Source of the DNA: a phage
Sequence record: PZ357121.2
DNA length: 64,000 nucleotides
Strand: one strand, 5' to 3'
The notes beneath the pieces are model-generated. The model did not search any database. It saw only the letters and a program-made list of their open reading frames with translations, and was not told where the DNA came from. How positions within the stretch are numbered: position 1 is the first letter of the stretch; every line of letters begins with the position of its first letter. Position numbers and translations under genes: made by a program. Below, piece after piece: positions 3,229 to 62,552 of the stretch.

Positions 3229-4554
3229 TCAAAGTGCCTCCAAGTCTTTAGTGTACTCTGTCACAACATCAGTAGACTTCCAATACTCATTTTCTTCTTT
3301 CTTAGCTTTAGCTTCTTCCGCTAGTTTACGTGCTTCGTCAGAAGTGATATGGAAGATGTTAAGGCCTACCAGTTTATCGACATGTTCTTTATACATTTCG
3401 ATTTGTGCTAGCTCTTCAGTCAAAGCTTTACGAGTCTTGCCCTGAATCACAATTTCGCCACTGATAACTTTTTTGATGAAGTGTGCCTTAGCAAAAGCCA
3501 GTTTAAATGCTTTTTCAGATTCAAGGATTTTGTTGTCAATACGTTTCTGAACGTAAGTCTTACGGACTTCAACAAAATCTTTGATTAAGTCCACTACATT
3601 ATCATAGACTGCTAATTTACCCTTTTCATTAATCACTGTGATGTTTTGTGAACGACGTTCGATGAGACTAAAATCTTTCATGATTTTTTCATGACGTAGC
3701 TCTTCATCATCAGGAAGCGAGTACTCTTTACGGAACTTCACCTTAAACCCAAAGCCGTGTTCACCGCAATCATCTTCCCATGAGATTAGACCTTTGTCTT
3801 CCAACGGGTCAAGAACCTTACTCACATACGTTTCACGGTCAAATTTATATGGGATTTCAGTTATCTGCATTTGAGTGCGAGATGTGAACTTATATGTTCC
3901 GTGAATCTCATAACGCCCATCAACTTCATGTACTTCACCACGGAATTCTGGGAATTCAACTTTTGGCTTAGTAACATTTTTACCTTGAAGAGCTTGTAAT
4001 ACAGCCTTTTTGACTGATTTAAAACTATGAGGCAGAATATTTGTTGCGTAACCGGTTGCAATACCAGAGACACCATTCAAAAGAACTGTCGGAATAATAG
4101 GAAGATAGAATTTTGGTGGAATGTGTTCTTTATCTTCATGAGCTGGAGCATATTCAGTATCTTTATATACGTTATAGAAATTTTTACTTACACGAGCAAA
4201 AATATAACGAGATGCTGCAGCTTTTTGGACTGTTCTAGAACCAAAGTTGCCTTGGCCATCTAACAGTGGATAGTTGTTGTTCCATGTGTTAGCCATCAAT
4301 GCACCTGCATCTTGTGCAGAGATTTCACCATGGTGATAACCTAAATCTGCAACACCGCCTGCAATTGACGCAAGTTTATGAAATTTTTCTTTATTACCAC
4401 GAGCCAAATCTAACGCACGATGAACCACAAAACGTTGAACCGGCTTAAATCCATCAATCATGTTTGGGATTGCACGGTTTTCAACGGTGTACATCGCATA
4501 TGCTAAGGCTTCGTTATCAATAATACTTTTTAGATTACGAGAATTCAATTGCAT
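3229..4554 (-). CDS. 52: DNA topoisomerase II medium subunit gp52 (441 aa)
   Basis: ATG ORF; GyrA-like N-terminal region; length and sequence match recalled T4 gp52. Confidence 0.9.
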   Translation of the reverse strand: MQLNSRNLKSIIDNEALAYAMYTVENRAIPNMIDGFKPVQRFVVHRALDLARGNKEKFHKLASIAGGVADLGYHHGEISAQDAGALMANTWNNNYPLLDGQGNFGSRTVQKAAASRYIFARVSKNFYNVYKDTEYAPAHEDKEHIPPKFYLPIIPTVLLNGVSGIATGYATNILPHSFKSVKKAVLQALQGKNVTKPKVEFPEFRGEVHEVDGRYEIHGTYKFTSRTQMQITEIPYKFDRETYVSKVLDPLEDKGLISWEDDCGEHGFGFKVKFRKEYSLPDDEELRHEKIMKDFSLIERRSQNITVINEKGKLAVYDNVVDLIKDFVEVRKTYVQKRIDNKILESEKAFKLAFAKAHFIKKVISGEIVIQGKTRKALTEELAQIEMYKEHVDKLVGLNIFHITSDEARKLAEEAKAKKEENEYWKSTDVVTEYTKDLEAL

Positions 4555-13951: not shown

Positions 13952-14131
13952 TAACCCTTCTTAAGTAAGTCGTAAAAACCACCGTTCACATGTTTAGGAG
14001 CAGAAACCCGACGAGTAGACAGACGATGACATTCAGGGCAAACATCGTTTTCTCGTTCAGAAATTCTTTTAATTTTTTCATATTCATGACCACAATCTTC
14101 AGATTGGCATTTATAGTCGTATAACGGCATT
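13952..14131 (-). CDS. zinc-ribbon protein (59 aa; two CxxC pairs)
   Basis: ORF below 60-aa cutoff found by reading the gap: MPLYDYKCQSEDCGHEYEKIKRISERENDVCPECHR...; fills the gap between flanking genes exactly. Confidence 0.6.
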
Positions 14132-14132
14132 A

Positions 14133-14543
14133 TTATTCCTTAAAATGTGCTTTCAACATTTGATACAAAGACCATGCCTGGTCATTATTTTCGATAGTAA
14201 TCGTCATCACAGGAAATTCAGACAATTCGCCAAGTTCACCAGAATCTTGCTCTTCAGACGCTTGATATGGATTTTCCACTTCATCAAAAAACTCTGCTTC
14301 GTTCGTGGAGAGCCAGATAAAGTTTTCATCAAGGATATCACCGCCTGTGGCGTATCCAACAGTGCCAGTAGATGTCACAATTTTAGTAGGACGTCCAAGA
14401 TGGTCAACATCTAATACTTTAAACGGTTCCATGCCAAGACGTCGTGCATAAATCCCATTATCAGTGTGGTCTTTAATAAACTCTTCTTGGGCACGTTTAT
14501 CTATAAATTGATACCATGAGTTAACGCGGAATTTATTAGCCAT
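14133..14543 (-). CDS. hypothetical protein (136 aa)
   Basis: Internal ATG (MANKF...) overlaps upstream TAA as TAATG; track ORF extends to 14561. Confidence 0.55.
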
Positions 14544-14770
14544 TAGTAAGTTTCCTTCCAATAAGTTGTACCATTTTCAGTGATTTCACGGAAGATACCA
14601 TAGATAGGCATTTTGTCACCGAGTTTTTCATAAACGTAAACCACTTCGGTGTAGCATAAAAATTCAGTCCAGTTTTTCTGTACAACAACTAAATCAGGAT
14701 TAAACAGAACATCTTCAAACTCATCGATGTTTGAATCAGTGGTTACGTTTTTAATGATTTGACGTTTCAT
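14543..14770 (-). CDS. hypothetical protein (75 aa)
   Basis: ATG at 14770 with GAGGAG SD; track N-terminal extension is encoded by the promoter. Confidence 0.5.
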
Positions 14771-14798
14771 AATATTCTCCTCTTGTTTTGATAGGTCT

Positions 14799-14827
14799 AT
14801 AGTATCATAGGCCATAGTTGTTGTACA
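14799..14827 (-). promoter_or_regulatory. T4-type early promoter (-35 TGTACA, 17 nt, -10 TACTAT)
   Basis: Minus strand motif followed by AGACCTATCAAAAC leader. Confidence 0.55.
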
Positions 14828-15352
14828 TCATTTTAGCAAAATAAAATCAACTTGTTCTGCCAATGAACGTCTAAACATTAATTGACAACTTCCGAGGATG
14901 AAATCAGGTGCTTCATAGACCGCGATGTAGTATCCTTTAGCTTTCAAAAGTTCAACATCCACCTGGTCATCAAACCATGCATAAACCGCGTCAACACTTT
15001 CAAATCCAAAATAGAACCCTTGGGCCCAATCTTCACTCAATTCAAATGTGTGCTCAATTCTATAGTATCTTAAGATATTTTGTTCAAGGAGTTTGTCTTC
15101 ATTTACTGTAGGACGATTAGGGACATTATAGTTGTCACCGTGATGGTAGAAGTTACCTGAGATTATTCCATGTTTATCAAGGAACTCCCATGTTTCTTCA
15201 GAGTTGTCGGTGCCCGACCAACCGTATGGCGAACGAGGTTCTTTATTCCAAGAGGTTTCCCAAATTCTGACGGCTTTACCATCTTCGATAGCAATTCCTG
15301 GTAATGATTCACGTTGAGTACAAAAACTACGTTCTACGCGGTAAACTAACAT
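14828..15352 (-). CDS. hypothetical protein (174 aa)
   Basis: ATG at 15352 (MLVYRVE...) with GAGGAG SD; track N-terminal extension overlaps promoter. Confidence 0.55.
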   Translation of the reverse strand: MLVYRVERSFCTQRESLPGIAIEDGKAVRIWETSWNKEPRSPYGWSGTDNSEETWEFLDKHGIISGNFYHHGDNYNVPNRPTVNEDKLLEQNILRYYRIEHTFELSEDWAQGFYFGFESVDAVYAWFDDQVDVELLKAKGYYIAVYEAPDFILGSCQLMFRRSLAEQVDFILLK

Positions 15353-15378
15353 ATTATTCTCCTCTGGTTGATATGGGT

Positions 15379-15407
15379 ATAATATCAAAACCAGAGGAGA
15401 AGTAAAC
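15379..15407 (-). promoter_or_regulatory. T4-type early promoter (-35 GTTTAC, 17 nt, -10 TATTAT) with 9-bp inverted repeat
   Basis: CCTCTGGTT/AACCAGAGG inverted repeat brackets the -10; downstream arm contains the SD. Confidence 0.55.
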
Positions 15408-15411
15408 AACT

Positions 15412-15831
15412 TTATGCGAAAGCAGCTGGGGTATATTTTTTAATTTGGAATTCAGGAACTACCATGAACTGACCAGCGAAAACGATGTTATAAAGCTTAA
15501 CACCATCTTCTACCCAACGGTCGCTGATAAATCCGGCGATTTGCTTAGTTTTCCACGGTGTTCCATCAGTTGCCGCAGCAATAGTGAATTCATGGTCTTT
15601 TTCAACAGAAACTGATCTGCATAGTCCCCATTTGAACGCTTTTTCTTCTGGTTCAATGAACTGGCTTGAGACGTAGCCAATATTACCATTAGCATCACGA
15701 ACTTTAACTTGGTTACGACCAAAAACCGGATCACTCACAGAAATAACTTCAACCAACTTCCCGGCAACTTTAGAGCGAGAAGCAACAGATACATATACGT
15801 AATCACCTGTAGAGAGATTTACAATATTCAT
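15412..15831 (-). CDS. hypothetical protein (139 aa), paralog of adjacent gene
   Basis: ATG ORF; shares SxASRSK.AGxLVEV, FKWxLC and GFISDxWVEDGxKLYNIVF motifs with 15841-16338. Confidence 0.65.
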   Translation of the reverse strand: MNIVNLSTGDYVYVSVASRSKVAGKLVEVISVSDPVFGRNQVKVRDANGNIGYVSSQFIEPEEKAFKWGLCRSVSVEKDHEFTIAAATDGTPWKTKQIAGFISDRWVEDGVKLYNIVFAGQFMVVPEFQIKKYTPAAFA

Positions 15832-15840
15832 AATAATTCC

Positions 15841-16338
15841 TTAAGCTTTATGAGGAGACACATAGCGAGTGATTTCAGATTCTTTAACAACTCGGAAGTC
15901 ACCTAAGAATACGATATTGTATAACTTTTCACCATCTTCAACCCATTGGTCACTAATGAAGCCACACATAGTATCAGTTTTGCTTGGATAACCGTATTCG
16001 TCGATGTAATCAAATTCTTTATCGGTTATAAATTCAACGCCTTTGCAAAGAGCCCATTTGAACTGTGTAGTAGGCTCAACGATATCGCTTGAAGCAAAGT
16101 GTGCAGGTGCAACTTCTTCGCTTGAAGCAAATTGGACTCGTATATGTTTTTCCAGGAATTTAGGACTTACGTAAGCATACTGGGCATCTTGTCCGCCAAA
16201 ACTGGGCATGATTCGAACTTTAACTTCTTTAATACGTCCCATGCCATTTGTGCGAAGTCCGACAACTTCAACCAGACGACCTGCGGCTTTAGACCGGGAT
16301 GCAGTTGATACACGCTTAATTTCACCAATAGTAATCAT
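15841..16338 (-). CDS. hypothetical protein (165 aa), paralog of adjacent gene
   Basis: ATG ORF; tandem paralog of 15412-15831. Confidence 0.65.
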   Translation of the reverse strand: MITIGEIKRVSTASRSKAAGRLVEVVGLRTNGMGRIKEVKVRIMPSFGGQDAQYAYVSPKFLEKHIRVQFASSEEVAPAHFASSDIVEPTTQFKWALCKGVEFITDKEFDYIDEYGYPSKTDTMCGFISDQWVEDGEKLYNIVFLGDFRVVKESEITRYVSPHKA

Positions 16339-16369
16339 AATTTTTTCTCTCTTTGTTTAAGTTGAATTC

Positions 16370-16399
16370 ATTATACTCCATCCATCCTTGGATGTAAAC
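16370..16399 (-). promoter_or_regulatory. early promoter (-35 GTTTAC, 18 nt, -10 TATAAT) with CCAAGGATGG spacer motif
   Basis: Minus strand GTTTACATCCAAGGATGGATGGAGTATAAT. Confidence 0.55.
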
Positions 16400-16404
16400 T
16401 GATT

Positions 16405-17082
16405 TTATCGCTGTTTTACACTTAACGGGTCAGGATTCTCAGGGACATCTTCAAGGCCAAGCGCATAACGCTGAGCATATTTTAACATCAAAATATCTTT
16501 AGCACAATCATGAATACTATCATGGGCAACGAATCCTTTTAGCGTACCCATCGGTAATGGACACATACTTAATCCTCGTGTCAACGAGTAAGCTTCGATT
16601 GCCGTACGAATATCGCGTTGAGCCCAGAATTTAACCGGTTCTAATTTATCAGTATCAATCTCTGGTTCAAGAACACCTTCATCACGATAGAGGTCACGAA
16701 TCAAATCGACCAAGATCGGGAAGTCAAAGCTCATACCACGGCACCACATCTGTGATTTCCATTGGTCAACTTTATTAGCTCGGCAATAGTCTAAAAAGAT
16801 TTTAATGCCTTCAAGCGTAGTGACGTCGTCTTCAGACGGAGCCAAGTTTTTACGTGCTTCAGCCGATTGTTCTTTCCACCATTTCATAGTGGATTTAGCG
16901 AAAACTCGCTTCCCTTTCTGAGAAGCTAAATTAAATTTAATTCGCTTACCTCGTTGAACAAGTTCTTCAAATGATTCAACAACTTCAGGGTCGGAATTAT
17001 ATGCAATAACCGCAAGGTCAATAACAGCCGCTTTTGATGTATTGCCGAATGTTTCAAAATCTATAATAACATCAGTGCTCAT
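16405..17082 (-). CDS. dexA: exonuclease A, DEDD 3'-5' exonuclease (225 aa)
   Basis: ATG ORF; N-terminal DFETFG exonuclease motif; adjacent to dda as in T4. Confidence 0.85.
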   Translation of the reverse strand: MSTDVIIDFETFGNTSKAAVIDLAVIAYNSDPEVVESFEELVQRGKRIKFNLASQKGKRVFAKSTMKWWKEQSAEARKNLAPSEDDVTTLEGIKIFLDYCRANKVDQWKSQMWCRGMSFDFPILVDLIRDLYRDEGVLEPEIDTDKLEPVKFWAQRDIRTAIEAYSLTRGLSMCPLPMGTLKGFVAHDSIHDCAKDILMLKYAQRYALGLEDVPENPDPLSVKQR

Positions 17083-17091
17083 AATTTTCTC

Positions 17092-18405
17092 TCAAATAAA
17101 ATGGACGTCAAACCGACCACGAGTTGTGCCGACATACAATAACTGTTTAGCTAATTCTGAATCGGCGTAATGGATACACGGTGTATAAACAAAGGCCGTG
17201 TCAACAGACATACCCTGGGCCTTATGGAAGGTCGATACTGGTAGTGCCTTCACCTTAGTGAACATACGTTTAGCATCCCAGAATTCGCTCCATGGGGCTT
17301 TACCACCTTTATTCCAAAATTTGTATGTTTCTGCGGTCTTAGCCAAAAACAAATTGAATTTATAAAGCTCTTCTTCAGAAGAAATAACCTTTATATCTTC
17401 GCGGATGTATTCTTCATCATCCCCATATGTTTCTACTGTAAGATTCCAGTATCGTATCATATATTCGCCTGAAACACCACGTGCTTTAACGAATGTAGAC
17501 GTTTCTACAGCATCTCGAATACGAACGAATTGACCGTTATTGAAAAGCATTTCGGTCATATTTTTACCATCTAGCTTATATGTCTTAGTAAATGGCTCTT
17601 GTAGAACAATGACTTCGTCTTTAATAAATGGTTTTTCTGTTTCAAGAAGTTTTCGGCGAATAATTGAATTTAACTTGTTCACCGACTTATTTGTGAATGC
17701 CATCATTCGATTTTCGAAAAGGTCTTCAGGAGTTTTAACGACGTTAAAATAGTTCATCATATACGATTTAAGGTCTGTATATCCGTGAACACCATGTCCA
17801 TCAACTACTTTATCATAAATCCATTTGCCATTACGAATATCAGTCGCAACATCAATAATCGGTGCATTGCTACGTTTAACTTCTGTAAGGTTGCATTGCA
17901 CGAAGTCTTTGTGGGTGAAGAAAGGACTTAGATACGCAGTTGATTCACCTGGGTCTACCGGACGAATCTGACATCGGTCGCCGATTCCAATTACTGTACA
18001 CCATTTAGGGATACTAGCTAACATTATTTTAAACAGAGAACGGTCGCACATTGACGCTTCATCAAATAACAGTACACGGCACAAGGCTAAGTCAGGAACC
18101 TTTTTCTGTTCAAACAATACGTTTTCTTCGTATGTAGTTGGGTTGATTTTAAGAATGCTATGAATAGTCGATGCTTCTTGACCCGCAAGTTTGCTTAGAA
18201 CCTTTTTAGCAGCATGTGTAGGGGCTGCTAAAATAATACCTGATTCTCCGGAAGAAATAAGGGCTTCAACGATGAATCTAGTAAGGGTTGTTTTACCTGT
18301 ACCAGCAGGCCCATTAATAGTTACGTGATGTTTCTTTTCTTTAATAGCGTTCATAACAACGTTGAAGGCGTTTTTCTGACCTTCAGTCAAATCATCAAAT
18401 GTCAT
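17092..18405 (-). CDS. dda: Dda DNA helicase (SF1, 437 aa)
   Basis: ATG ORF; MTFDDLTEGQKNAF...INGPAGTGKTT Walker A; near-identical to recalled T4 Dda. Confidence 0.95.
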   Translation of the reverse strand: MTFDDLTEGQKNAFNVVMNAIKEKKHHVTINGPAGTGKTTLTRFIVEALISSGESGIILAAPTHAAKKVLSKLAGQEASTIHSILKINPTTYEENVLFEQKKVPDLALCRVLLFDEASMCDRSLFKIMLASIPKWCTVIGIGDRCQIRPVDPGESTAYLSPFFTHKDFVQCNLTEVKRSNAPIIDVATDIRNGKWIYDKVVDGHGVHGYTDLKSYMMNYFNVVKTPEDLFENRMMAFTNKSVNKLNSIIRRKLLETEKPFIKDEVIVLQEPFTKTYKLDGKNMTEMLFNNGQFVRIRDAVETSTFVKARGVSGEYMIRYWNLTVETYGDDEEYIREDIKVISSEEELYKFNLFLAKTAETYKFWNKGGKAPWSEFWDAKRMFTKVKALPVSTFHKAQGMSVDTAFVYTPCIHYADSELAKQLLYVGTTRGRFDVHFI

Positions 18406-18713
18406 CGTAAAGTCCCTGCAATTGGAATACTAACAATACGGCCTGTATCCAGGATTCGTTGATACAATTTTTGCGTCTCCGCATCTAGTTTAATGTGTTT
18501 CATTTCAAGCTTATTAAACCAGAACTTACGCGGAGTTTCGACCATTCTTAGAACTCCCATTTTTAAATCTGTTTTATACTGTGTTTTCAAAGTATCGAAA
18601 ACTTTATCTGCAATATCCTTTCTAAAAAATACTGCAGGACGATGCTCATCAAGTGGAACCGGGACAGTAAATCCTTCCATATCTCGATAAACTATTGCAT
18701 ATACATAAACCAT
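18402..18713 (-). CDS. hypothetical protein (103 aa; dda.1-like position)
   Basis: ATG ORF overlapping dda start by 4 nt. Confidence 0.6.
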   Translation of the reverse strand: MVYVYAIVYRDMEGFTVPVPLDEHRPAVFFRKDIADKVFDTLKTQYKTDLKMGVLRMVETPRKFWFNKLEMKHIKLDAETQKLYQRILDTGRIVSIPIAGTLR

Positions 18714-60472: not shown

Positions 60473-60502
60473 ATTATACTCCAACCGTCCTTGGTTGTAA
60501 AC
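60473..60502 (-). promoter_or_regulatory. early promoter (-35 GTTTAC, 18 nt, -10 TATAAT) with CCAAGGACGG spacer motif
   Basis: Minus strand GTTTACAACCAAGGACGGTTGGAGTATAAT. Confidence 0.55.
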
Positions 60503-61465: not shown

Positions 61466-61494
61466 ATTATACTCCAACCATCCTTGGTTGTACA
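61466..61494 (-). promoter_or_regulatory. early promoter (-35 TGTACA, 17 nt, -10 TATAAT) with CCAAGGATGG spacer motif
   Basis: Minus strand TGTACAACCAAGGATGGTTGGAGTATAAT. Confidence 0.55.
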
Positions 61495-62490: not shown

Positions 62491-62552
62491 AACTATTTCC
62501 TCAGATTGAATTGGAACTCAAAACCATTATAACCCGTCCTTGGGTAAAGCGT

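What the first reader, a model, noticed from the sequence alone, without database searches (positions are those of the whole stretch)
15412..16338. Tandem paralog pair downstream of a CCAAGGATGG promoter
The 139-aa and 165-aa proteins share three conserved blocks, indicating local duplication and divergence. Duplicated accessory genes in T4-like phages are often host-interaction factors.
Basis: seen in the sequence. Interest (0 to 1): 0.45.

Follow-up and report, generated by a model that had tools for sequence, protein, structure and literature searches.

The report
Tandem motB genes in RB69-like phage
The two neighbouring genes are the phage's motB gene, whose T4 counterpart encodes a DNA-coating protein that acts on the host chromosome, and an old, shortened copy of it; the same pair was noted in phage RB69 in 2006, so the finding is real but ordinary.

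Summary
Two minus-strand ORFs, 16338..15841 (165 aa) and 15831..15412 (139 aa), are true paralogs (41% identity, E 5e-30). Both pass Pfam's cut-off for the MotB family, PF17613.

The window comes from a Mosigvirus, an RB69/HX01-like T4-type coliphage. The 165-aa gene is the ortholog of T4 motB. The 139-aa gene is the ortholog of RB69 ORF010c (RB69p010), which was described in 2006 as a paralogous duplication of the adjacent motB.

- **Age:** the duplication is ancient. Synonymous sites are saturated, and the N-terminal-domain tree puts the short copy outside all coliphage MotB orthologs.
- **Selection:** both copies are under purifying selection (dN/dS 0.12-0.31).
- **Architecture:** the short copy keeps every family-invariant residue. 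It lacks the disordered linker (about 25 aa) and most of the N-terminal positive charge.
- **Promoter:** CCAAGGATGG is the spacer of a near-consensus early promoter (TTTACA-17-TATAAT), not a promoter element. This promoter looks like a hybrid left when a third relative, motB.1, was deleted between two promoter copies.

By homology, both proteins are probably early, nonspecific DNA-binding proteins that act on the nucleoid. The distinct role of the short copy is untested. This is already known, and interest is low.

The parts
16370..16398 (-). Early (sigma-70-type) promoter TTTACA-17-TATAAT serving the pair. CCAAGGATGG (16382-16391) lies in its spacer, which also holds a 6-bp inverted repeat, CATCCA-AGGA-TGGATG.
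   Evidence: 11 of 12 consensus matches, the best site in the region; the same cassette recurs in relatives and elsewhere in the window. A-tracts upstream (AAAAC, ATAAAAT) resemble T4 early promoters; this last point rests on my own knowledge and on PMC1524935.
15841..16338 (-). motB ortholog, 165 aa: basic N-terminal KOW/SH3-like domain, disordered linker (about residues 66-90), C-terminal beta-barrel domain.
   Evidence: Pfam PF17613 E 2.8e-37, full length. phrog_1671 E 6.7e-64. 45% identity to T4 MotB, E 2e-41. AF2 pLDDT 77.7, with residues 66-90 below 50.
16072..16134 (-). Two imperfect 33-bp (11-codon) tandem copies inside the motB linker (FASSEEVAPAH / FASSDIVEPTT). HX01 (154 aa) and RB69 (151 aa) MotB lack the duplication.
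   Evidence: repeat D2 (spacing 33, 77% identity). Searches show the linker length differences among orthologs (151-191 aa).
15412..15831 (-). Short motB paralog, 139 aa, ortholog of RB69 ORF010c / RB69p010. Same two domains, joined by only about 5 residues; N-terminal domain nearly neutral. Its Shine-Dalgarno (AAGGA) overlaps the motB stop codon.
   Evidence: Pfam PF17613 E 1.5e-20. phrog_1671 E 1.5e-50. All 35 family-invariant columns retained. AF2 pLDDT 87.8, pTM 0.76. dN/dS 0.12-0.22. RB69 locus. RBS context.
15353..15405 (-). Downstream boundary of the pair: a 13-bp perfect inverted repeat (UUCUCCUCUGGUU / AACCAGAGGAGAA) whose 3' arm contains the SD of the next gene. A weaker promoter-like site, TTTACT-16-TATTAT (15406..15379), has its -10 in the loop.
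   Evidence: -24.6 kcal/mol, z -5.8, 0 of 200 shuffles fold as well; 9 of 12 promoter-like site.
14828..15352 (-). Homolog of T4 motB.2 (174 aa from the ATG at 15352). Despite the name it is not a MotB-family protein.
   Evidence: 34% identity to T4 MotB.2, E 3e-15. phrog_1106. No PF17613 hit.
16405..17082 (-). dexA (exonuclease A), the gene immediately upstream. In most relatives a motB.1-like gene lies between dexA and motB; it is absent here.
   Evidence: Rv2179c-like exonuclease, phrog_255. (relatives carry the extra gene). (junction sequences).

Best explanation
The pair is the motB gene of a Mosigvirus (165 aa) followed by an ancient, conserved motB paralog (139 aa, the ortholog of RB69 ORF010c).

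Shown here:
- Both proteins belong to the MotB family. Each has an N-terminal KOW/SH3-like barrel and a C-terminal beta-barrel.
- Both sit in the early region in the order dda-dexA-motB-paralog-motB.2-cef-goF.
- They are preceded by one near-consensus early promoter. No MotA-box or late promoter was found. The two genes are 9 nt apart, and the second gene's ribosome-binding site overlaps the first gene's stop codon, so they are very probably co-transcribed early and translated from one mRNA.
- Both are under purifying selection.

Inferred by homology to T4 MotB: both are abundant early, sequence-nonspecific DNA-binding proteins. They would coat DNA in the infected cell and alter how H-NS/StpA sit on it, which improves phage yield.

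Inferred from the models: the copies are not equivalent. MotB has a basic N-terminal domain (+6) tethered to the C-terminal domain by a flexible, length-variable linker of about 25 residues. The paralog is a compact, rigidly joined, nearly uncharged version (+1/+1) that keeps all invariant residues. The most likely reading is subfunctionalisation: the same DNA- or nucleoprotein-binding chemistry, with a different reach, affinity or target.

The array is evolutionarily fluid. The window has lost the third member (motB.1), apparently by recombination between two copies of the promoter cassette. Elsewhere, natural fusions join a MotB N-terminus to a paralog C-terminus.
For: - Paralogy: E 5e-30.
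- Family: PF17613 above the 25-bit cut-off for both, at 128.5 and 74.1 bits; phrog_1671.
- Orthology: the 165-aa protein is 45% identical to T4 MotB, E 2e-41. The RB69 locus has the same order, with RB69p011 (motB) followed by RB69p010 (139 aa).
- Conservation: the 139-aa type is found at 80% identity or more in 208 of 778 MotB-bearing phage records, with a sharp gap down to below 60%. It also occurs in RB3-group Tequatroviruses, directly after motB.
- Selection: dN/dS 0.15-0.31 for motB and 0.12-0.22 for the paralog; paralog-to-paralog dS about 2.1.
- Age: 96% bootstrap support that coliphage MotB N-terminal domains exclude the paralog.
- Residues: all 35 invariant columns are kept.
- Structure: AF2 gives pTM 0.76 (compact) for the 139-aa protein, against 0.52 with a disordered 66-90 for the 165-aa protein. 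Tandem Tudor/KOW/SH3-like barrels are the best fold matches.
- Charge.
- Promoter. No MotA box or late promoter.
- Hybrid promoter and motB.1 deletion.
- Chimeras: P0029 is 98% T4 MotB in the N-terminal part and 94% paralog in the C-terminal part. It occurs on at least 5 contigs from 4 listed sequencing runs, and in the one contig that extends downstream no separate 139-aa gene follows it.
- Function of T4 MotB: PMC6070864, PMC7827196.
- Prior notice of the pair: PMC1524935, PMC7827196.
Against: - No experiment exists for the 139-aa protein or for any Mosigvirus MotB. DNA binding is inferred only from 36-45% identity to T4 MotB.
- The window's MotB is much less basic overall than T4 MotB (net -1 against +6), and the paralog is nearly neutral. 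Strong nonspecific DNA binding is therefore not guaranteed for either.
- The C-terminal-domain tree does not resolve when the duplication happened (40% support for a grouping with Mosigvirus-type MotB). Gene conversion or a younger origin of that domain cannot be excluded.
- Co-transcription and the transcription start are predicted, not measured.
- Promoter-like sites as a class are not enriched in the region (14 found, 13.2 expected).
- The published domain call for the C-terminal domain is OB-fold (PMC7827196), whereas my fold searches favour SH3/Tudor-like barrels. This is unresolved.
Confidence: 0.8

Rival explanations
1. Recent local tandem duplication (a 'genomic accordion'-type amplification) that is now diverging. 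The second copy would be a young, possibly transient extra dose of motB.
For: The genes are adjacent, in the same orientation and paralogous. Short stretches of DNA similarity remain between the copies: 71% over 49 nt and 89% over 18 nt. The C-terminal domain groups weakly with Mosigvirus-type MotB (40% bootstrap).
Against: Only 41% amino-acid identity, and synonymous sites are saturated (dS about 2.1). The N-terminal domain of the short copy branches outside all coliphage MotB orthologs (96%). Its short hairpin matches distant family members rather than its neighbour. The 139-aa form is conserved at 80-99% identity in 208 records in two genera.
Confidence: 0.04
2. The 139-aa gene is a decaying, functionless remnant of motB, a truncated copy that lost its linker and part of its N-terminal domain.
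For: It is shorter than every MotB ortholog (151-191 aa). Its N-terminal domain has lost about 5 positive charges. Its neighbour motB.1 is clearly dispensable: it is deleted in the window and frameshifted in the T4 and RB69 reference sequences.
Against: The reading frame is intact at exactly 139 aa in nearly all cluster representatives found. dN/dS is 0.12-0.22. All invariant family residues are retained. The AF2 model is confident and compact (pLDDT 87.8). It has its own Shine-Dalgarno. Its C-terminal domain was kept in natural fusions that replace the MotB C-terminal domain.
Confidence: 0.05
3. The short paralog is a modulator or antagonist of MotB rather than a second DNA coater. It would compete for the same DNA or H-NS nucleoprotein sites, or pair with MotB through the shared C-terminal domain. 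Lacking the flexible linker and the basic N-terminal domain, it would cap or limit MotB-driven compaction and toxicity.
For: It is always encoded immediately after motB, with the ribosome-binding site overlapping the motB stop codon, which favours fixed stoichiometry. The C-terminal core is conserved while the linker and N-terminal charge are lost. T4 MotB is highly toxic (PMC6070864), so a brake is plausible. T4 and most other Tequatroviruses manage without the paralog.
Against: There is no evidence that MotB oligomerises through its C-terminal domain, and no heteromer prediction could be run here. Natural fusions put the paralog's C-terminal domain on a MotB N-terminus as the only copy, which fits interchangeable modules better than an antagonist. 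The SRSKxAG motif of the N-terminal domain is also fully conserved in the paralog.
Confidence: 0.1

Closest known systems
T4 MotB (gene motB, Pfam PF17613 'Modifier of transcription')
   Same: The 165-aa protein is its ortholog: 45% identity, full-length PF17613 match, same position in the early dda-dexA...cef-goF region, and same domain order (KOW/SH3-like N-terminal domain, flexible linker, C-terminal barrel). The 139-aa protein is 36% identical and keeps all invariant residues.
   Different: T4 has a single motB. The window's MotB is far less basic (net -1 against +6) and has an acidic C-terminal domain. The 139-aa copy lacks the linker and a 6-residue hairpin insertion in the N-terminal domain. 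Biochemistry is known only for the T4 protein (PMC6070864, PMC7827196).
RB69 ORF010c / RB69p010 with RB69 motB (RB69p011)
   Same: The same two genes in the same order and spacing in the type Mosigvirus. Described as a paralogous duplication of the adjacent motB (PMC1524935) and as 'two copies of motB' (PMC7827196).
   Different: RB69 keeps a (frameshifted) motB.1 between dexA and motB; the window has none. RB69 MotB is 151 aa; the window's is 165 aa, owing in part to a 33-bp tandem duplication in the linker.
T4 MotB.1 family (full-length forms of 144-181 aa)
   Same: Shares the C-terminal core motif GWVTDQWIEDGVELLNVV...VVPRS with both window proteins (E about 1e-8 to 1e-10). It is encoded in the same array in most relatives.
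   Different: Its N-terminal domain is different (LSm-like according to PMC12152347). It is absent from the window. The T4 and RB69 reference copies are truncated by frameshifts.
PeSL cassettes (promoter-early stem-loop) of T4-type phages
   Same: A near-identical early-promoter cassette is repeated in front of neighbouring non-essential genes, and recombination between copies deletes the gene in between. The window's promoter looks like such a recombinant (PMC2839356, PMC4122927).
   Different: In the cited papers a PeSL pairs an early promoter with a separate stem-loop. Here the only inverted repeat is a 6-bp one inside the promoter spacer. Membership was therefore not established.
Tandem Tudor / tandem KOW double-barrel proteins (53BP1 tandem Tudor, Spt5 KOW6-KOW7)
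   Different: The scores are weak, with no sequence similarity and no shared function implied. The literature calls the MotB C-terminal domain an OB-fold (PMC7827196).

Membership tests
MotB family (Pfam PF17613) | Significant match to the family profile above Pfam's gathering score (25 bits) | tested here: met
   165 aa: 128.5 bits, E 2.8e-37, profile positions 2-157 of 162. 139 aa: 74.1 bits, E 1.5e-20. phrog_1671 'MotB-like' E 6.7e-64 and 1.5e-50.
MotB family (Pfam PF17613) | Two-domain architecture: N-terminal KOW/SH3-like barrel plus C-terminal beta-barrel | tested here: met
   AF2 models give beta-strand-only domains in both proteins. Best fold matches are KOW, Tudor and tandem SH3-like barrels. 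Whether the C-terminal domain is OB or SH3-like is not settled.
MotB family (Pfam PF17613) | Flexible, variable-length linker between the two domains | tested here: inconclusive
   Met for the 165-aa protein (residues 66-90, pLDDT below 50). Not met for the 139-aa protein, whose domains are joined by about 5 residues and which models as one compact body (pTM 0.76). Distant full-length family members of 142-152 aa also have short linkers, so this is probably not a defining feature.
MotB family (Pfam PF17613) | Family-invariant residues (SRS..AG..VE, VKVR, YV, FK, D.W.E.G.KLYN.VF.G) | tested here: met
   All 35 invariant columns of a 31-sequence alignment are present in both window proteins.
MotB family (Pfam PF17613) | Position in the early, non-essential region between dexA and cef/goF of T4-type phages | tested here: met
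   Window order is dda, dexA, motB, paralog, motB.2 homolog, cef, goF-like, 39.2-like. The same holds in T4 and RB69.
MotB family (Pfam PF17613) | Sequence-nonspecific DNA binding, toxicity in E. coli, co-purification with H-NS/StpA | not testable with these tools
   Known only for T4 MotB (PMC6070864, PMC7827196). Net charge differs markedly from T4 MotB.
Recent tandem (accordion-type) gene amplification | High nucleotide identity between copies, with unsaturated synonymous divergence | tested here: not met
   dS about 2.1 and dN 0.51 between the copies. The longest similar DNA stretch is 49 nt at 71% identity.
PeSL mobile regulatory cassette | Near-identical early promoter repeated at the borders of variable genes | tested here: met
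   GADS24 and HX01 carry two copies flanking motB.1. The window carries a hybrid of the two. Further copies lie in the window at 60501 and about 61494.
PeSL mobile regulatory cassette | Associated stem-loop element forming the composite motif | tested here: inconclusive
   No terminator-like hairpin was found between dexA and motB on the minus strand. There is only a 6-bp inverted repeat inside the promoter spacer, which shows compensatory differences between cassette copies (CATCCA/TGGATG against CAACCA/TGGTTG).

The most novel reading that the evidence does not exclude
The 139-aa protein is not a spare MotB. It would be a long-retained specialist: a rigid, linker-less, nearly uncharged double-barrel that uses the shared C-terminal core on a different target from MotB, or that tunes MotB/H-NS nucleoprotein assemblies. 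One possible target is the phage's own glucosyl-hydroxymethyl-C DNA rather than host DNA. On this reading the motB.1-motB-paralog array is a toolkit of interchangeable N- and C-terminal modules that phages reshuffle in nature, as shown by the fusions P0028, P0029 and P0031 and by distant homologs that combine a MotB-type N-terminus with a MotB.1-type C-terminus.
Probability: 0.2. Interest if true: 0.45.

Novelty: already known. Interest (0 to 1): 0.18.

Why it matters
MotB is one of the few phage-encoded nucleoid-associated proteins studied so far, and all experiments used T4, which has one copy. About a quarter of MotB-bearing phage records (208 of 778) carry a second, compact copy under purifying selection. 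Comparing the two could show which parts of MotB (basic N-terminal domain, flexible linker, C-terminal core) are needed for DNA coating, compaction and H-NS displacement. The locus is also a clear small example of how repeated early-promoter cassettes and conserved protein blocks drive gene loss and domain swapping in T4-type phages. None of this is surprising to specialists: the pair is annotated in GenBank and was noted in print in 2006 and 2021.

Tried and rejected
- **PDB sequence search** with the 165-aa protein found nothing meaningful (best E 0.56, a ribosomal protein).
- **PADLOC defence-system profiles:** no hits for either protein or for the downstream gene, so there is no support for a defence or anti-defence label.
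- **MotA-box middle promoters and TATAAATA late promoters:** none on the minus strand in 14000-18600.
- **Tandem Repeats Finder:** nothing in the region. The 33-bp linker duplication was seen only with the direct-repeat tool.
- **IMG/VR scan** with the 139-aa protein returned only 3 loci, too few for population statistics.
- **Chimeric proteins P0028 and P0029:** I searched GenBank phages to see whether complete genomes carry them. None does; the best matches are 76-80% identical. Their reality rests on Logan contigs: several independent runs for P0029, but only one contig for P0028. P0031 was not looked up; its cluster entry lists one short contig.
- **C-terminal-domain tree:** it did not resolve the timing of the duplication.
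- **Son et al. 2021, Nucleic Acids Research (PMC8450097),** on MotB compaction of DNA is not held in the library. Only its title, as cited in PMC12152347, could be used.
- **First bootstrap script** timed out and was rewritten.
- **CCAAGGATGG as a specific regulatory motif:** rejected as a stand-alone signal, because the decamer count is not above chance and the decamer sits in the promoter spacer.

Full report
**1. What is at the coordinates**

The interval 15412-16338 holds two minus-strand ORFs: 16338..15841 (165 aa) and 15831..15412 (139 aa), separated by 9 nt. BLASTP of one against the other gives 41% identity, E 5e-30. They are:
- SRSK[AV]AG[RK]LVEV;
- FKWxLC;
- GFISDxWVEDGxKLYNIVFxGxFxVV.

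**2. Which phage, and which genes**

Over 14800-17100 the window is 95-98% identical to many Escherichia phages of the genus Mosigvirus, including GADS24, JN02 and HX01. The gene order on the minus strand is dda, dexA, the two ORFs, a homolog of T4 motB.2, cef, a goF-like gene and a 39.2-like zinc-ribbon gene. This is the early, non-essential region known from T4.

Both ORFs match Pfam PF17613 (motB) above the curated cut-off, with E 2.8e-37 and 1.5e-20. Both also match phrog_1671, 'MotB-like transcriptional regulator'.
- The 165-aa protein is 45% identical to T4 MotB (E 2e-41) and is its ortholog.
- The 139-aa protein is 36% identical to T4 MotB.
- In RB69, the type Mosigvirus, the same two genes are RB69p011 (motB) and RB69p010 (139 aa).

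**3. This is already in the literature**
- Nolan et al. [quoted passage not shown]
- Patterson-West et al. [quoted passage not shown]
- Many GenBank records annotate both genes as 'MotB-like transcriptional regulator'.

**4. Age and selection**
- Between the two window genes, dN is 0.51 and dS is about 2.1, which is saturated.
- Against orthologs in eight other phages or contigs, dN/dS is 0.15-0.31 for motB and 0.12-0.22 for the short copy.
- tblastn with the 139-aa protein finds 778 phage records carrying a MotB-family gene. Of these, 208 have an ortholog at 80% identity or more, and all the rest are below 60%. The short form is therefore a distinct, conserved lineage.
- It also occurs in the RB3 group of Tequatrovirus (RB10, Sf23), again directly downstream of a Mosigvirus-type motB. 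The two genes travel as a module.
- In a neighbour-joining analysis of the N-terminal domain, all coliphage MotB orthologs (T4-, Mosigvirus- and Gaprivervirus-type, plus the longer JS98-type forms) form a clade that excludes the short copy in 96% of bootstraps. The C-terminal domain is unresolved.
- The short copy's N-terminal domain lacks a 6-residue hairpin insertion. In this it resembles distant family members rather than its neighbour.

The duplication is old, not a recent local event.

**5. Structure and differences between the copies**
- An alignment of 31 family members has 35 invariant columns, and both window proteins keep all of them.
- The AlphaFold2 model of the 165-aa protein shows two beta domains and a disordered segment at 66-90 (mean pLDDT 77.7, pTM 0.52).
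- The 139-aa protein models as one compact two-barrel body (pLDDT 87.8, pTM 0.76), because its domains are joined by only about five residues.
- Linker length varies widely among orthologs (151-191 aa). In the window it contains a 33-bp tandem duplication.
- Net charge differs between the proteins:

| Protein | N-terminal domain | C-terminal domain |
|---|---|---|
| Window MotB (165 aa) | +6 | -5 |
| Short copy (139 aa) | +1 | +1 |
| T4 MotB | +5 | +2 |

- The family is small and phage-restricted: 32 clusters at 50% identity among 1.84 billion representatives. Structural relatives in BFVD are MotB-like proteins of other T4-type phages.

**6. The promoter**

On the minus strand, the sequence between dexA and motB reads GTTTACA-TCCAAGGATGGATGGAG-TATAAT. 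That is TTTACA, a 17-nt spacer and TATAAT, matching 11 of 12 consensus positions, at 16398..16370. CCAAGGATGG is spacer sequence. This matches the early-promoter form described for T4-type phages (PMC1524935). No MotA-box or late promoter is present on this strand. The second gene's Shine-Dalgarno (AAGGA) overlaps the stop codon of the first. Early co-transcription of the pair is therefore the likely arrangement, but it has not been measured.

**7. A gene is missing here**

Relatives such as GADS24, HX01 and RB69 carry a further gene between dexA and motB.
- It is the full-length homolog of T4 motB.1, about 164 aa.
- Its C-terminus shares the MotB core motif.
- In those phages the gene is flanked by two nearly identical promoter cassettes: GTTTACA-ACCAAGGATGGTTGGAG-TATAAT upstream of it, and TGTTGTACA-TCCAAGGATGGATGGAG-TATAAT upstream of motB.
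- The window has the left flank of the first cassette joined to the spacer and downstream sequence of the second. That is what a deletion by recombination between the two cassettes would leave.
- The join also improves the -35 element in front of motB, from TGTACA to TTTACA.
- NHEP36 and PTK have the same two-gene arrangement.
- This resembles the promoter-cassette (PeSL) shuffling described for T4-type phages (PMC2839356, PMC4122927). No separate stem-loop was found, so membership is not claimed.

**8. Natural fusions**

Three proteins from public assemblies are chimeras of MotB and the short paralog:

| Protein | N-terminal part | C-terminal part |
|---|---|---|
| P0029 | 98% identical to T4 MotB, up to FKWKL | 94% identical to the short paralog |
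| P0028 | 91% identical to Mosigvirus MotB | 96% identical to the short paralog |
| P0031 | Mosigvirus MotB up to WVEDG | tail 100% identical to the short paralog |

- P0029 occurs on at least five contigs from four listed sequencing runs. In the one contig that extends downstream it is followed by an 89-aa gene, cef and goF, with no separate short paralog.
- None of the three is in the 50,697 GenBank phage records. P0028 and P0031 rest on single short contigs.
- The conserved blocks therefore seem to act as crossover points that collapse the pair into one hybrid gene.

**9. Mechanism**

For T4 MotB the following is shown experimentally: it is toxic in E. coli, it binds host and modified T4 DNA tightly and nonspecifically, it copurifies with H-NS and StpA, it doubles burst size, and when overexpressed it de-represses part of the H-NS regulon (PMC6070864, PMC7827196).

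By homology, the window's MotB most likely does the same. The short copy keeps the conserved cores of both domains but lacks the flexible tether and most of the N-terminal positive charge. I therefore infer a related activity, binding to DNA or to a DNA-protein complex, with different geometry or affinity. Whether it acts in parallel with MotB, on a different DNA, or as a modulator of MotB cannot be decided here.

**10. Verdict**

However, the genes are well-known family members, the duplication is ancient, and the pair has been noted in print and in annotations. Interest is low. The small additions here are:
- the compact, linker-less architecture of the short copy;
- the evidence for purifying selection on both copies;
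- the hybrid promoter left by the motB.1 deletion;
- the natural MotB-paralog fusions.

Noticed in passing
window 16339-16404, compared with L003 3031-3126 and 3588-3683, and L001 2998-3095 and 3557-3651: The window lacks the motB.1-like gene (about 164 aa) that GADS24, HX01 and RB69 carry between dexA and motB. Its dexA-motB intergenic promoter is a hybrid of the two near-identical promoter cassettes that flank that gene in the relatives, as expected from a deletion by recombination between them. NHEP36 and PTK show the same two-gene state.
   Followed up: yes
window 15353-15405 (minus strand): A perfect 13-bp inverted repeat lies between the 139-aa gene and the motB.2 homolog. It folds at -24.6 kcal/mol (z -5.8) and pairs the Shine-Dalgarno GAGGAG of the downstream gene. 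A promoter-like TTTACT-16-TATTAT has its -10 in the loop, so long upstream transcripts would hide the ribosome-binding site while transcripts from the proximal promoter would not.
   Followed up: partly
window 60485-60501, 61478-61494, 62534-62543 (minus strand): Further copies of the CCAAGGA[TC]GG promoter cassette lie 32-44 nt upstream of three consecutive minus-strand ORFs of 316, 310 and 331 aa with unknown function (phrog_1435, phrog_2351, phrog_2257). The 60501 copy also shares the 5' leader (ctttctatcttaac) of the promoter in front of motB.1 in GADS24 and HX01. The 62534 copy has too short a spacer to be a standard promoter.
   Followed up: partly
L004 (T4) 1700-2151; L016 (RB69) 3370-3880: The reference T4 motB.1 (119 aa) ends at ...GWVTDQWIGRWR because of one extra G. 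The next frame encodes the conserved tail EDGVELLNVVHAGEYSVVPRSAVVAILN, which is intact in 144-181-aa homologs. RB69 motB.1 carries two indels in the same region, which explains the 29-aa 'peptide' RB69p012. Published work on T4 MotB.1 therefore concerns a truncated protein.
   Followed up: partly
P0028 (L015 1373-1894), P0029 (L011-L014), P0031: Natural chimeras join a MotB N-terminus and linker to the C-terminal domain of the 139-aa paralog, with crossovers at the conserved FKW or WVEDG blocks. P0029 is found in four listed sequencing runs and replaces the pair. None is present in GenBank phage genomes.
   Followed up: yes
window 16072-16134: A 33-bp (11-codon) tandem duplication lies in the disordered linker of the 165-aa MotB (FASSEEVAPAH / FASSDIVEPTT). 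It is absent from HX01 and RB69. Linker length is the most variable feature of MotB orthologs (151-191 aa).
   Followed up: yes
P0133, P0134, P0136, P0137, P0143, P0145: Distant family members combine a MotB-type KOW N-terminal domain (VYVS..SRSKVAGE) with a MotB.1-type C-terminal domain (DPTDLLC...GWVTDQWIEDGVELLNVV...VVPRS). The N- and C-terminal modules of MotB and MotB.1 have therefore been recombined in other phage lineages.
   Followed up: partly
L010 2443-2991 (IMGVR_UViG_2974739009_000001): This MotB is a mosaic: a T4-type patch (KSRSKAAGKLVEVVSIQLKEGVKDEDSEVKVRIIP) sits inside an otherwise Mosigvirus-type protein, indicating recombination between MotB types within the N-terminal domain.
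   Followed up: no
window 16376-16391 and L003/L001 promoter copies: The promoter spacer contains a 6-bp inverted repeat with a 4-nt centre. It differs between cassette copies by a compensatory pair of changes (CATCCA-AGGA-TGGATG against CAACCA-AGGA-TGGTTG). This might be chance or might mark a binding site for a dimeric factor.
   Followed up: no
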